From assembly GCA_010015805.1 (NCBI GenBank), contig ML978125.1, positions 1,178,001 through 1,242,000 on the forward strand: a stretch of DNA of 64,000 nt, given 5' to 3'. This DNA is from Rhizodiscina lignyota. Taxonomy: Eukaryota. Positions 25,078-28,000 of this stretch are shown one piece after another. Each line of letters opens with the position of its first letter. The first letter of the stretch is position 1. The position numbers were made by a program, and so were the translations under genes. The notes beneath the pieces are model-generated. The model saw nothing but the letters and a program-made list of their open reading frames with translations. It was not told the DNA's origin and did no database searches.

Positions 25078-28000
25078 ATGTTCAGAAGCGCCCTCCGCCA
25101 GTCAACCCGCGCGGTCGGGGCTTTCTCTGCTACTGGCAGAGTTGCTTCGGTAAGTTGATCACCACCGATTCACTTCGATTCACTTCAATTCGTGCGCAAC
25201 ACACCGCCAGTACCAGCTTCACTCACCGCCTTGAACTCCACTTCTTTGTTCTAAGGCTGTGTTGAGTGGCGCTGGCGCGAATTGAGACTCTCTTTGAAGC
25301 TTCGAGCTTTTGCAGCAGAGCACTGACATTTCCTCCCTTTCGCAGAGCCGAACCGCACCCGCCGCCTTCAACATCGCCTCAAAACAGATCAGAGGCTACG
25401 CCGAGGCGAAGGCCACTCCAACCGAAGTTTCTTCCATCCTCGAGCAGAGAATTCGTGGTGTTCAGGAAGAGGCAGGCCTTTCCGAGACCGGCCGTGTCCT
25501 GTCTGTCGGGTATGTCCTACGGTGTCAACTTCAAGATTTCAATCACCGAGACATAAGTTGGTTGAATGAAGCTAACGTGCGGTATATAGTGACGGCATCG
25601 CTCGTGTCCATGGCATGAACAATGTCCAGGCCGAGGAGCTGGTCGAGTAAGTTTTTCTCAGCAGCGGCAGGAACGCAGTTTACTGACACGACTGCAGGTT
25701 CGCGTCTGGTGTCAAGGGCATGTGCATGAACTTGGAAGCCGGCCAGGTCGGTGTCGTCCTCTTCGGTTCTGATCGTCTCGTCAAGGAGGGTGAGACTGTC
25801 AAGCGCACCGGCGAGATTGTAAGCACTCTCTACTCAGCGTCGCACATGCACTTACTGACCATCTGCAGGTCGATGTCCCTGTCGGCGAAGCACTCCTGGG
25901 CCGTGTCGTTGATGCGCTCGGCAATCCCATTGATGGCAAGGGCCCGATCAAGACGACCGAGAGGCGCCGTGCCCAGCTCAAGGCTCCTGGCATTCTCCCC
26001 CGCCGCTCAGTGAACCAGCCTGTTCAGACCGGCCTTAAGTCTGTTGATGCCATGGTCCCTATCGGCCGCGGCCAACGTGAGCTTATCATTGGCGACCGTC
26101 AAACTGGCAAGACTGCCGTCGCTCTTGACGCCATGCTGAACCAGAAGCGATGGAACAATGGCAACGACGAGAGCAAGAAACTCTACTGCATCTACGTCGC
26201 TATTGGCCAGAAGCGCTCCACCGTGGCTCAACTTGTCAAGACTCTTGAGGAGAACGATGCCATGAAGTACAGCGTCATCGTTGCTGCCACTGCTTCTGAA
26301 GCAGGTATTTCTTCTTTTTACTCCTGTATATCCCACTGACTAACCTCCACTAAAGCACCGCTGCAATATCTGGCACCGTTCACCGGTTGTTCTATGGGTT
26401 AGTTGATTTTTCATTGTCGCATTTTCCTTATTTCCAAACCGGTTCGATTCTCTTCATGTAACCGCACCTTCCTCGGACACGATGGGCACCTTCCCCGGAC
26501 ACCATGGACGACGCGTCTGCCTGGACTCGACTCTGGACGTCGCTTCCTCATGGACGATGGTCTGCCTGGACTGGATCATGGATAAATTGCTGGATTCCTT
26601 CGCTGTCAAATTCGGCATTGTCGAATTCCCTCTGCACTCAATCCTCGTCTACGACTTCGCTGCACCGCGCAATTCTCAACCAATTCGTCTCCGCTCACGC
26701 TCATTGTCACAATGTCTGCAATGTCTGCACTGTCCGCGCTTCGCTCAATTGTCGATGGTTACATGATTGAAATCATCAGTGCCGATTCACCCGACTGGTT
26801 TATCAATCGGAGCTTCAAAGTGGTTTTGTGCGCGGAGAGTCTCGACATCTGTGCGGCTGTGCCGCTTACTTTCGCTCGCGGCATGAGCGCGGTCCTTGAT
26901 TCTGACAGCCCGCCTTCTCTCGACTTCTTCATGTCTCTTCCCGACCCAACTCAGTACTATTGGGCCGTCTATGCTGCGGTCCTGGAGAAAGATGGTTGCG
27001 ACCCCAAACTCTATATTGGATCGGGGACCAATGCCGACGATGGTTGCACCACGCGCACCGCCATTTACGAGGACAAGACTCATCCAAAATTACCTCGATT
27101 CGTCCGTTTGGCATACGATCAAGGCTACGATCTTAGTCACATTGGCATGCTATGCTGGGCTCCGCTTCCTTCCGCGGCCATCGTTCCACGAGCAAGGCTT
27201 CGCTTCGTTGCTATCGAGGGCGTCTTCACATGCCTCTTCTACTCCGCGTTCCATAACATGATGGACAAGATCTGCATTGACTTCATGCCCTGGTCTCGCG
27301 ACGATGTTGTCTGGGCCCCGGCCAATAGCCACTTACCGTTCATGGAGGGCCCCATCGGCGATCTCAACTTGACTCCGGACGAATTACTCGCTATAGACAC
27401 TCAGAAAAAAATCGACTACATTGAGCGAAAGCGTCGTGAGTCCCGGGAGGCCTCTGAGCAGCTCAGGCAGAACACCATGGCTTGGCGTCAGGAAGTCGAG
27501 CGAGTTAAGCAACTTGAGAGGGCTCGGCGCGAAGAAGAAGCTGCGGAAGACGAGACCATGGACGAAGCTGCACCCGATCCTGAGCGTGAGGCGTATAATG
27601 CTAGGAAGCGCAAGGAAAAATCAGCTTGGACCGACAAGAACAGAGACAAAGTACATGTTCAGCACGAACGCACACGCGAGACAGCAAAAGCCAAACGGAG
27701 GTTTGTCTGCGACGACTGTGATTTAGCGCTTGCCAACTCCTCTGGACTCAAGAAACACCTGGCTTCGGACGCCCACGCACAGCAAGTCGCCATCAATCAG
27801 GGTACTGCTAAGCCTGGGCTGTCGTCGGGTGCAATAGCAGCAAAAACTCACGCCGCCAAAGCGAAAGCCAGTAAACGCCACTATTGCGGACCATGCGACC
27901 ATGCGTTCGCACAGGCCAAACATCTCGAGAAGCACAAGCTCAGCAAGAAGCACCTCCGGACAGTCGCATCCATCTCGTAGAATCATCTCGAGATCTCACT

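What the first reader, a model, noticed from the sequence alone, without database searches (positions are those of the whole stretch)
26712..27980. Modular architecture: GIY-YIG nuclease + charged helical linker + two C-x2-C-x12-H-x5-H zinc fingers
Seen: N-terminal half has AVY(85-87), YIG(101-103), R115, Y119, E169 and N205; residues about 225-325 are E/R/K-rich; two fingers lie at 27708-27776 and 27885-27953. Established: GIY-YIG homing enzymes such as I-TevI use a nuclease-linker-DNA-binding-domain layout, and the H-x5-H finger spacing resembles matrin/U1/JAZ-type fingers that often bind RNA. Inference: this is a natural zinc-finger-nuclease-like protein whose C-terminus may set target specificity, or may bind the intron RNA.
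Basis: partly seen in the sequence, partly recalled or inferred. Interest (0 to 1): 0.75.

Follow-up and report, generated by a model that had tools for sequence, protein, structure and literature searches.

The report
Intron-borne GIY-YIG zinc-finger nuclease
An unusually long but otherwise ordinary intron in a fungal ATP synthase gene carries an intact gene for a DNA-cutting enzyme tethered by a charged helix to two zinc fingers, the build expected of a self-spreading "homing" element, a kind not so far described in cellular nuclear introns.

Summary
ORF 26712-27980 (422 aa) has every stated motif at the stated place. A high-confidence model of residues 1-230 matches the I-TevI catalytic domain best of 48,161 solved chains (Z 7.1; 7.7 on a second look), and the next matches are also GIY-YIG enzymes. 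Pfam and PHROGs do not detect the nuclease by sequence.

- N205 is not conserved (N in 14 of 99 relatives); H207 and E212 are.
- A conserved 80-residue N-terminal cap was missed.

The linker is 50% charged and varies from 41 to 206 residues in the family. The two C-x2-C-x12-H-x5-H fingers are widely spaced and of the JAZ/zf-met type. Relatives carry 1 to 5 fingers.

The ORF fills a 1,697-nt GT..AG intron of nuclear ATP1, whose other six introns are 50-80 nt. Relatives sit at or near the same ATP1 spot in two other fungi, and in HSP70 and CPA2. Dead copies lie elsewhere, one of them in this window.

The best reading is a homing-type endonuclease of a spliceosomal intron. Whether the fingers read DNA or RNA stays open.

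This scan had already noted the same family in other genomes (ATP2, CPA2). In print I found only mirusvirus "shintrons".

The parts
26398..28094 (+). Whole element: a 1,697-nt GT..AG intron (GTTAGT...CAG) of the nuclear ATP synthase alpha (ATP1) gene
   Evidence: Removing it joins the exons to read ...[17 protein letters not shown]. With all seven introns removed, ATP1 is open for 527 codons to its stop at 28971. The six other introns are 50-80 nt. Rfam finds no group I or II match on 26300-28200.
26398..26711 (+). 314-nt leader before the ORF, with short direct repeats and six upstream ATGs
   Evidence: Repeat families D1 and D6. ATG positions. The block 26487-26588 is 78% identical to copy 2, against 67% for the coding part. 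The leader shares an 11-mer and a 10-mer with the leader of L002. Its RNA is no more stable than shuffles.
26712..27980 (+). ORF, 422 aa (P0001)
   Evidence: The family has 1,107 clusters at E<=1e-3.
26712..26951 (+). Residues 1-80: a family-specific helical N-terminal cap packed on the nuclease core
   Evidence: Helices 3-22, 33-49, 58-63 and 70-74. pLDDT 96.4 and pTM 0.93 for residues 1-230. No solved fold matched this part on its own.
26955..27347 (+). Residues 82-212: GIY-YIG nuclease core (AVY 85-87, YIG 101-103, R115, Y119, E169, N205/H207, E212)
   Evidence: VIA-align: I-TevI catalytic domain Z 7.1, rmsd 2.3, 90 of 92 residues aligned. On the second look Z 7.7, 95 of 97 residues, model 82-212. 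Conservation counts.
27375..27695 (+). Residues 222-328: E/R/K-rich helical linker (helices 222-284, 290-309, 311-328)
   Evidence: Secondary structure. Composition. The distance from core to first finger is 41-206 aa, median 80, in 122 relatives; it is 120 aa here.
27708..27776 (+). Zinc finger 1, C333-x2-C336-x12-H349-x5-H355
   Evidence: The model shows a beta-beta-alpha unit here.
27885..27953 (+). Zinc finger 2, C392-x2-C395-x12-H408-x5-H414
   Evidence: The model shows a beta-beta-alpha unit here.
27981..28094 (+). 114-nt trailer with a branch-point-like CTAAT (28074-28078) 17 nt before the CAG acceptor
   Evidence: Read from the sequence printed. Calling it a branch site is inference.
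6305..7215 (+). Second, dead and truncated copy of the element. It covers the leader plus residues 4-206, with stop codons and a frame shift, and lies between genes.
   Evidence: tblastn gives 52% and 65% identity in two frames. DNA alignments. Similarity to copy 1 begins at GGTTGGT, opposite the GGTTAGT donor site of copy 1. The flanks resemble none of the three host genes tried.

Best explanation
The ORF encodes a four-part nuclease:
- a family-specific N-terminal cap (residues 1-80);
- a GIY-YIG catalytic core (82-212);
- a long charged helical tether of variable length (222-328);
- two widely spaced U1/JAZ-type C2H2 fingers (331-355 and 390-414).

It rides inside a spliceosomal intron of the essential nuclear gene ATP1. 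The intron brings its own donor, branch-like and acceptor signals, so the host gene stays functional.

Most likely mechanism (inferred):
- The protein enters the nucleus and anchors through its C-terminal part on the intron-less ATP1 allele near the codons for SMG/EFFRD.
- The tethered GIY-YIG head cuts nearby.
- Repair from the intron-bearing copy duplicates the intron. This is homing.

Shown here: the fold, the motifs, the architecture, the intron setting, the recurrence at conserved sites of housekeeping genes, and the dead copies. Inferred: nuclease activity, the target, the role of the fingers, and homing itself.
For: Fold:
- Domain model pLDDT 96.4, pTM 0.93.
- I-TevI is the only one of 48,161 chains with Z>=5 (Z 7.1). 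Ranks 2-5 and 7 are T4 EndoII, PD-T4-3, UvrC, R.Eco29kI and At-HIGLE.
- On the second look, the top 8 of the 11 chains with Z>=2 are I-TevI (two), PD-T4-3, UvrC (three) and Slx1 (two).
- The catalytic-type residues lie on the expected strands and helices.

Family:
- 1,107 clusters at E<=1e-3.
- Every one of 106 relatives with at least 150 aa after the core has at least one strict finger: 73 have two, 17 one, 16 three to five.

Setting:
- The intron is 1,697 nt, against 50-80 nt for the six other ATP1 introns.
- No ribozyme family matches.

Recurrence:
- L002, from another fungus, holds a relative (45% identical over the best matched segment; identical in the tree to P0028, which is 42-52% identical to the window's protein by region) in ATP1, 5 nt from the window's position.
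- Gene model P0051 fuses a 38-41% identical relative to the ATP1 part that starts within 3 codons of the window's junction.
- P0124 is fused to HSP70.
- P0166, named CPA2 of Neonectria ditissima by its source, breaks inside carbamoyl-phosphate synthase.

The element diverges much faster than its host: ATP1 is 86% identical between the window and P0051, the nuclease core 41%.

Dead copies: 6305-7215 in this window, and L001 and L003.
Against: - No sequence profile sees GIY-YIG: Pfam on the protein, the 25 most-matched families shown for 99 relatives, PHROGs, and a family profile against PDB sequences.
- Foldseek gives no match at E<=0.001 in PDB or BFVD. A Z of 7-8 is in the range the tool calls middling.
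- The Asn equivalent (N205) is not conserved.
- Host context is known for only 5 of more than 1,000 clusters.
- The grouping of the ATP1 residents in the tree is not significant: 97 of 500 shuffles do as well.
- The three ATP1 residents do not share finger helix residues.
- The dead copies are not in the target genes, so spread is not strictly site-specific.
- Six upstream ATGs in the leader make it unclear how the ORF is translated.
Confidence: 0.6

Rival explanations
1. The nuclease part is as above, but the fingers bind RNA or an A-form helix rather than reading target DNA. Candidates are the intron or pre-mRNA, a U1:5' splice-site-like duplex, or an RNA-DNA hybrid. They would then help splicing or expression, as a maturase does, or hold the protein at the transcribed locus. 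DNA site choice would come from the cap, the linker or the catalytic head.
For: - Finger families: zf-C2H2_jaz in 80 of 99 relatives, zf-met in 68 of 99, zf-U1 in 5 of 99.
- Single-stretch profile matches that span both fingers and their spacer are to ZNF622 (E 8.4e-10), ZFa (1.1e-6) and Bud20 (1.4e-5).
- Finger start-to-start spacing is 34-79 residues, mode 59. This is not the tandem array of DNA-reading fingers.
- ATP1 residents differ in helix residues.
Against: - The leader RNA is less stable than its shuffles (z +2.24) and no RNA family matches the intron.
- Within close pairs, the helix residues are kept at least as well as other non-scaffold finger positions (75 of 168 against 121 of 313).
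- Finger 2 helix residues are identical between P0166 and P0147. This fits a sequence-reading role.
- Finger number varies from 1 to 5, as in modular DNA readers.
Confidence: 0.2
2. This is not a homing element. Either it is a transposon-like 'introner' that inserts widely and is tolerated only where it can be spliced out, or it is a nested host gene with a cellular job whose place in an intron is incidental.
For: - Ectopic dead copies lie between genes (copy 2; L003).
- The similarity of copy 2 to copy 1 starts at the donor-site bases, as if the whole intron unit had moved.
- The neighbouring small ATP1 intron also sits at a different position in L002, so the 5-nt offset need not mean a separate invasion.
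Against: - None of the 23 inverted pairs found joins the two ends of the intron, and there is no clear target duplication.
- GIY-YIG enzymes are not known transposases (recalled).
- Three divergent relatives lie within a few codons of one ATP1 site.
- All five known contexts are conserved housekeeping genes.
Confidence: 0.13
3. The ORF is an inactive relic that is still open by chance.
For: - No expression data: no RNA run is listed for this DNA.
- Many relatives are broken.
Against: - The 422 codons are open, with every family-invariant residue and all eight zinc ligands intact.
- The model confidence is very high.
Confidence: 0.05

Closest known systems
I-TevI and other modular GIY-YIG homing endonucleases (I-BmoI)
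   Same: - An N-terminal GIY-YIG head, a long linker and a C-terminal nucleic-acid-binding part.
- The best structural match is the I-TevI catalytic domain.
- The gene lies inside an intron at a conserved site of an essential gene.
- The abstract start of PMC3664794, seen in the search listing, describes these enzymes as two-domain monomers using an anchor and a flexible tether.
   Different: - The host intron is spliceosomal, not group I.
- The genome is a cell nucleus. [quoted passage not shown]
- The binding module is two C2H2 fingers, not a NUMOD/helix-turn-helix module (the I-TevI details are recalled).
- There is an extra 80-residue cap.
- No sequence-profile match.
Spliceosomal homing introns ('shintrons') of mirusviruses (PMC12768974; outline, section 9 and term passages read)
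   Same: Introns with ordinary donor and acceptor sites that carry endonuclease genes, GIY-YIG among them (132 of 334), and prefer particular conserved genes.
   Different: - Those are in viral genomes. The paper says such an association had not been seen before, and its main text does not mention fungi (0 occurrences).
- It reports no zinc fingers on these endonucleases: the only 'zinc' passage concerns RING proteins.
- No close relative of this family was found in IMG/VR.
GIY-YIG proteins with zf-C2H2_jaz/zf-met fingers of giant viruses (Nucleocytoviricota), from ESM Atlas clusters
   Same: The same pairing of domains. Four clusters carry PF01541 on 94-97% of members and jaz or zf-met on 13-39%.
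   Different: - Feature scores are only 0.81-0.88, which the tool calls leads.
- These proteins are shorter (191-275 aa).
- Kinship was not tested by alignment.
- BFVD structural matches are weak (best E 0.025).
Widely spaced dsRNA-binding fingers (JAZ/ZNF346, ZFa) and U1-like fingers (ZNF622/Rei1, Bud20, U1C)
   Same: C-x2-C-x12-H-x5-H spacing, an H-x2-[ST]-K-x-H tail, a long spacer between fingers, and profile matches.
   Different: Those proteins carry no nuclease. That they bind RNA is recalled from the literature, not tested here.
Engineered zinc-finger nucleases (FokI-ZF; I-TevI-ZF fusions)
   Same: The concept of a non-specific or semi-specific nuclease head tethered to fingers.
   Different: - The engineered forms use tandem DNA-reading fingers with short linkers.
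- Here the fingers are of another class and far apart.
- This comparison is recalled, not tested.

Membership tests
GIY-YIG nuclease superfamily | Three-stranded sheet flanked by helices, in the order b1-b2-a1-a2-b3-a3 | tested here: met
   The model has strands 83-92 and 99-105, helices 113-120 and 129-136, strand 140-151 and helix 155-175. I-TevI matches at Z 7.1-7.7 with 90-95 residues aligned, and other GIY-YIG enzymes fill the next ranks.
GIY-YIG nuclease superfamily | GIY-like and YIG-like motifs on the first two strands | tested here: met
   AVY at 85-87 (Y87 in 99 of 99 relatives) and YIG at 101-103 (Y101 in 92 of 99, G103 in 99 of 99).
GIY-YIG nuclease superfamily | Conserved Arg on helix 1 and metal-binding Glu on helix 3 | tested here: met
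   R115 in 97 of 99 and E169 in 99 of 99 relatives. The equivalence to I-TevI R27 and E75 is inferred from the aligned ranges and recalled residue numbers.
GIY-YIG nuclease superfamily | Conserved Asn after the Glu helix | tested here: inconclusive
   N205 is present in this protein, but N occurs in only 14 of 99 relatives and C in 75. H207 (97 of 99) and E212 are conserved instead.
GIY-YIG nuclease superfamily | Match to the Pfam GIY-YIG profile (PF01541) | tested here: not met
   There is no such match at E<=10 for the protein. It is not among the 25 most-matched families shown for 99 relatives (48 families matched in all, and the rest were not shown).
GIY-YIG nuclease superfamily | DNA cleavage activity | not testable with these tools
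   This needs a biochemical assay.
GIY-YIG homing endonucleases (I-TevI type) | Nuclease head, linker and C-terminal binding domain in that order | tested here: met
   An added N-terminal cap is present.
GIY-YIG homing endonucleases (I-TevI type) | Encoded in a self-splicing (group I) intron or free-standing in a phage or organelle genome | tested here: not met
   The intron is GT..AG in a nuclear gene, and no Rfam intron family matches at E<=1.
GIY-YIG homing endonucleases (I-TevI type) | Cuts the intron-less allele and spreads by repair | not testable with these tools
   The evidence is indirect only: the same ATP1 site is occupied in three fungi.
Spliceosomal homing introns (shintrons) | Spliceosomal donor and acceptor sites, no ribozyme fold, endonuclease gene inside | tested here: met
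Spliceosomal homing introns (shintrons) | Target-gene preference of an endonuclease lineage | tested here: inconclusive
   The three ATP1 residents fall on one side of a 100%-supported split from the HSP70 and CPA2 residents. Only 5 of the 103 tree rows have a known host, and 97 of 500 shuffles do as well.
JAZ/U1-like C2H2 fingers (PF12171, PF12874) | C-x2-C-x12-H-x5-H spacing | tested here: met
   Both fingers have it. 96 of 165 family proteins have exactly two such fingers.
JAZ/U1-like C2H2 fingers (PF12171, PF12874) | Score above Pfam's gathering cut-off | tested here: not met
   For the window's own protein, jaz scores 19.7 against a cut-off of 22.6 and zf-met 11.9 against 21.2. Relatives pass, for example P0026 at 37.2 and P0139 at 48.6.
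JAZ/U1-like C2H2 fingers (PF12171, PF12874) | Binding of double-stranded RNA | not testable with these tools
   This needs binding assays.

The most novel reading that the evidence does not exclude
Fungal nuclei harbour a large, undescribed family of natural zinc-finger nucleases that drive homing of ordinary spliceosomal introns into conserved sites of housekeeping genes (ATP1, HSP70, CPA2 and others). In this reading the variable finger set and tether act as the exchangeable targeting module that lets lineages switch host genes. That would make the family a cellular counterpart of viral shintrons, a natural nuclear gene drive, and a route of intron gain.
Probability: 0.35. Interest if true: 0.9.

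Novelty: new variant of a known kind. Interest (0 to 1): 0.78.

Why it matters
- Homing endonucleases are textbook residents of self-splicing introns and inteins. A November 2025 paper on mirusviruses (PMC12768974) states that their link with spliceosomal introns had not been seen before, and it concerns viruses only.
- A family of more than a thousand clusters in fungal nuclear genes would show that ordinary introns of cells can be selfish, nuclease-driven elements. It would give a concrete mechanism for site-specific intron gain in eukaryotes.
- It would also supply small, possibly monomeric, nuclease-finger scaffolds for study.
- For annotation, these ORFs cause fused or mis-named gene models. 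One example is a protein named CPA2 that is part nuclease. Another is an Atlas cluster of this family that was auto-named after CPA2.

Tried and rejected
- Own genome search: no genome is held for this window.
- Sequence routes to GIY-YIG all gave nothing: Pfam, PHROGs, phmmer and a family profile against PDB sequences.
- Foldseek found nothing at E<=0.001 in PDB with the whole model or the domain model, or in BFVD. I-TevI ranked only 5th-6th there (E 0.76-0.85).
- Search for longer, fused forms with the single protein found none. With the 99-row alignment it found one.
It was repeated with 8 closer rows and gave 3 loci.
- The viral contig scan found no relative.
- RNA evidence: no RNA holder is listed, only one DNA holder.
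- Group I or II intron or other known RNA: nothing in Rfam at E<=1.
- Structured leader RNA: rejected (z +2.24).
- Terminal inverted repeats: none among the 23 inverted pairs.
- Host-gene remnants beside copy 2: no match better than E 0.86.
- Test of whether finger helix residues track the target gene: inconclusive.
- Dimerisation of the linker with complex prediction: the job was never accepted because the queue was full, so there is no result. Whether the helix is a coiled coil or a single stable helix is open.
- Literature: searches found no paper on a nuclear, spliceosomal-intron GIY-YIG family in fungi. The library lacks most subscription journals. I did not open the supplementary tables of PMC12768974; they may list domain architectures.
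Full report
WHAT IS THERE

The ORF at 26712-27980 on the + strand is open for 422 codons.
- AVY at 85-87, YIG at 101-103, and R115, Y119, E169 and N205;
- a stretch at 225-325 that is 50% E+R+K+D, against 20% for residues 1-224;
- two exact C-x2-C-x12-H-x5-H units at nt 27708-27776 and 27885-27953.

The window looks like a fungal nuclear genome: about 50% G+C, no tRNA genes, and short GT..AG introns. No whole genome is held for it.

THE SETTING

The ORF lies inside the nuclear gene for the ATP synthase alpha subunit (ATP1).
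- The surrounding intron runs from 26398 (GTTAGT) to 28094 (CAG) and is 1,697 nt long.
- Removing it joins the exons to read ...[17 protein letters not shown].
- With all seven introns removed, ATP1 is open for 527 codons to its stop at 28971. The other six introns measure 50-80 nt.
- Read-through from the upstream exon meets a stop codon at once (ATG GGT TAG, read). The ORF is therefore not an alternative exon.
- Rfam finds nothing at E<=1 on 26300-28200, and none of the 23 inverted repeat pairs joins the two intron ends. This is neither a group I/II intron nor a terminal-inverted-repeat transposon.
- The ORF is preceded by a 314-nt leader with six ATGs and followed by a 114-nt trailer with a CTAAT 17 nt before the acceptor.

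THE NUCLEASE HALF

Sequence methods are blind to it.
- Pfam lists only sub-threshold finger families for this protein.
- No GIY-YIG appears among the 25 most-matched families for 99 relatives.
- PHROGs gives no GIY-YIG match.
- A family profile against all PDB sequences hits only zinc-finger proteins.

Structure is clear.
- An AlphaFold model of the whole protein built on 18 sequences has pLDDT 88.4.
- A model of residues 1-230 built on 100 sequences has pLDDT 96.4 and pTM 0.93.
- Aligned without pre-filter to 48,161 representative solved chains, the domain model has a single match with Z>=5. It is the catalytic domain of the homing endonuclease I-TevI: Z 7.1, rmsd 2.3, 90 of 92 residues aligned, model 83-208.
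- The next matches are T4 EndoII (4.5), PD-T4-3 (4.5), UvrC N-terminal GIY-YIG domain (4.3), R.Eco29kI (3.8), a plant Grx N-terminal domain (3.5) and At-HIGLE (3.2).
- The titles call UvrC and R.Eco29kI GIY-YIG. That the other four also have this fold is my recollection.
- A second look at Foldseek's candidates gives I-TevI Z 7.7 (95 of 97 residues, model 82-212). Eight GIY-YIG chains lead the 11 with Z>=2.
- Foldseek itself never reaches E<=0.001. The tool warns that Z 7-8 is middling. The case rests on the match covering the whole domain, standing alone above the rest, and being followed by the same superfamily.

The motifs sit on the expected elements: Y87 on strand 1, Y101-G103 on strand 2, R115 and Y119 on helix 1, E169 on helix 3. 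In 99 aligned relatives:
- Y87, G103 and E169 are invariant.
- R115 is kept in 97 of 99, Y119 in 95 of 98, Y101 in 92 of 99.
- N205 lines up with the I-TevI Asn by the aligned ranges, but is N in only 14 of 99 (C in 75).
- H207 (97 of 99) and E212 (90 E, 9 D) are the conserved residues there.

No solved fold matched this part on its own.

THE LINKER

- The model gives helices at 222-284, 290-309 and 311-328.
- In 122 relatives where both landmarks could be found, the distance from the end of the core to the first finger ranges from 41 to 206 residues. The median is 80, and it is 120 here.
- One relative (P0141) stretches its linker with tandem repeats.
- The linker therefore behaves as a tether of free length, with one conserved basic patch (A-Y-x-A-R-K-R...W...K-N) that may be a nuclear import signal or a nucleic-acid contact (inference).
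- I could not test whether it is a dimeric coiled coil or a single stable E/R/K helix. The complex-prediction job never got past the queue.

THE FINGERS

- Both are modelled as beta-beta-alpha units. Their ligands are kept in between 86 of 90 and 89 of 89 relatives.
- Among 165 family proteins, 96 have exactly two strict fingers, 31 have one, 16 have three to five and 22 have none.
- None of the 22 finger-less proteins shows at least 150 residues after the core motif: 15 have short tails and in 7 the motif was not found. None of the 106 relatives that do have at least 150 residues there lacks a finger. The fingers are a fixed part of the family.
- By type, zf-C2H2_jaz matches 80 of 99 relatives, zf-met 68, classical zf-C2H2 53 and zf-U1 5, all at E<=0.01.
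- The window's own fingers fall just under each Pfam cut-off.
- The fingers are far apart, 34-79 residues start to start, mode 59.
- The profile matches that span both fingers and the spacer in one stretch are ZNF622, ZFa and Bud20. As I recall, these proteins bind RNA or ribosomes.
- Scaffold positions are nearly fixed, while the helix positions that read bases in classical fingers are as variable as free surface (about 3.0-3.8 bits).

RELATIVES AND THEIR HOSTS

The family is large. A word-indexed search found 23 proteins. An exhaustive search found 1,107 clusters at E<=1e-3, 685 at E<=1e-10 and 201 at E<=1e-30. The Atlas places its cluster in Ascomycota. I could see genomic context for only five members.
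- P0051 is a gene model that fuses a relative to the ATP1 region starting within three codons of the window's junction. The relative is 38% identical in the cap and 41% in the core.
- L002 is a metagenome contig of another fungus. It has a relative, 45% identical over the best matched segment, in ATP1. Its donor site lies after ...SMGE, 5 nt downstream of the window's.
- P0124 fuses HSP70 (profile positions 1-419 of 599) to a relative.
- P0166 breaks inside carbamoyl-phosphate synthase after ...TIMIN and continues as a relative. Its source names it CPA2 of Neonectria ditissima.
- The fifth is the window itself.

All five sites are in highly conserved parts of housekeeping genes.

Host and element diverge very differently. 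ATP1 is 86% identical between the window and P0051, while the nuclease core is 41% identical.

I built a tree of 103 rows: the 99 rows of A5 plus P0051, P0124, P0166 and L002. The other 60-odd family proteins, mostly fragments, were left out. A 100%-supported split puts the HSP70 and CPA2 residents on one side and all three ATP1 residents on the other. With so few labelled rows this is not significant (97 of 500 shuffles do as well).

One caution on the 5-nt offset: the neighbouring small ATP1 intron also sits at a different place in L002. The offset may therefore reflect intron drift rather than separate invasions.

DEAD COPIES

- The window holds a second copy at 6305-7215. It has the leader plus residues 4-206, with stops and a frame shift, and is truncated.
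- It lies between two minus-strand genes, and its flanks resemble none of the three host genes tried.
- Its similarity to copy 1 begins at the donor-site bases (GGTTGGT against GGTTAGT).
- L001 is frame-shifted and L003 is a fragment between genes.

DO THE FINGERS SET THE TARGET?

The test I could run is weak and mixed.
- Summed over 13 close pairs, the helix positions are 75 of 168 identical, other non-scaffold finger positions 121 of 313, and the core 1,029 of 1,674.
- For the role: the CPA2-resident P0166 and its neighbour P0147 share 11 of 14 helix residues, with an identical finger-2 helix. The HSP70-resident P0124 and P0142 share 10 of 14.
- Against the role: the three ATP1 residents share almost none. 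The window's protein shares 1 of 14 with P0028/L002 and 2 of 14 with P0051.
- The alternative, binding of intron RNA, finds no structured target. The leader folds worse than its shuffles (z +2.24).
- The leader does hold short direct repeats. It is better conserved between the two copies than the ORF is (78% against 67%). It shares an 11-mer and a 10-mer, in the same order, with the leader of L002. This points to a DNA-level or linear-RNA signal such as a promoter or a protein-binding site.

COMPARISON WITH WHAT IS KNOWN

- The build is that of modular GIY-YIG homing endonucleases, which are two-domain monomers with an anchor and a flexible tether (PMC3664794, abstract start seen in the listing).
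- It differs in four ways: the intron type, the nuclear location, the kind of binding module, and the added cap.
- The only printed description I found of endonuclease genes inside spliceosomal introns is the mirusvirus paper (PMC12768974). I read its outline, section 9 and term passages. It says the association had not been seen before and does not mention fungi in its main text.
- Searches found nothing on a fungal nuclear family.
- The Atlas points to giant-virus clusters that pair PF01541 with jaz/zf-met fingers (scores 0.81-0.88, leads only). The domain pairing itself may therefore be older than the fungal family.
- No close relative turned up in viral contigs.
- This scan had already flagged the same family in other genomes (ATP2, CPA2 and a dead copy). 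I re-derived the CPA2 case independently from P0166.

VERDICT

- The architecture reading is supported.
- The function of the fingers is open.
- The most likely mechanism is homing of a spliceosomal intron by a tethered GIY-YIG nuclease (confidence about 0.6). Activity, target and drive are all still to be shown.

Noticed in passing
window 6305-7215 (+): A dead, truncated second copy of the element (leader plus residues 4-206, with stops and a frame shift). It lies between two minus-strand genes. Its similarity to copy 1 starts at the donor-site bases.
   Followed up: partly
window 26464-26582; window 6390-6486; L002 3597-3716: The leader holds repeats: a 22-nt unit (two close copies plus a third at 68%) and a 23-nt unit in two copies. 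The leader block is better conserved between the two window copies (78%) than the ORF (67%). An 11-mer and a 10-mer recur in the same order in the leader of L002, from another fungus. This may be a promoter or a protein-binding site.
   Followed up: partly
window 26456-26578: Six ATGs precede the ORF start within the intron leader. A transcript starting at the intron's 5' end would therefore translate the nuclease poorly. The true transcript start is unknown.
   Followed up: no
L002 3459-3470 compared with window 26394-26400: The nuclease-bearing intron of ATP1 sits 5 nt further downstream in L002 (after SMGE) than in the window (inside the Gly codon). The small upstream intron is also shifted between the two fungi.
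   Followed up: partly
proteins P0141, P0082, P0128 (family members): Some relatives carry five strict fingers (a sixth appears in P0082 under looser spacing). P0141 also has a linker lengthened by tandem repeats of an 11-residue basic unit. The C-terminal half is therefore built from units that are gained and lost.
   Followed up: partly
ESM Atlas clusters: Giant-virus (Nucleocytoviricota) clusters pair the Pfam GIY-YIG domain with zf-C2H2_jaz/zf-met fingers, the same pairing as here. Feature scores are 0.81-0.88, so kinship is untested.
   Followed up: no
proteins P0051, P0124, P0166: Public gene models fuse the nuclease ORF to host exons (ATP1, HSP70, CPA2). One such product is named carbamoyl-phosphate synthase by its source. 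An Atlas cluster of the family is auto-named after CPA2. This is an annotation artefact caused by the element.
   Followed up: yes
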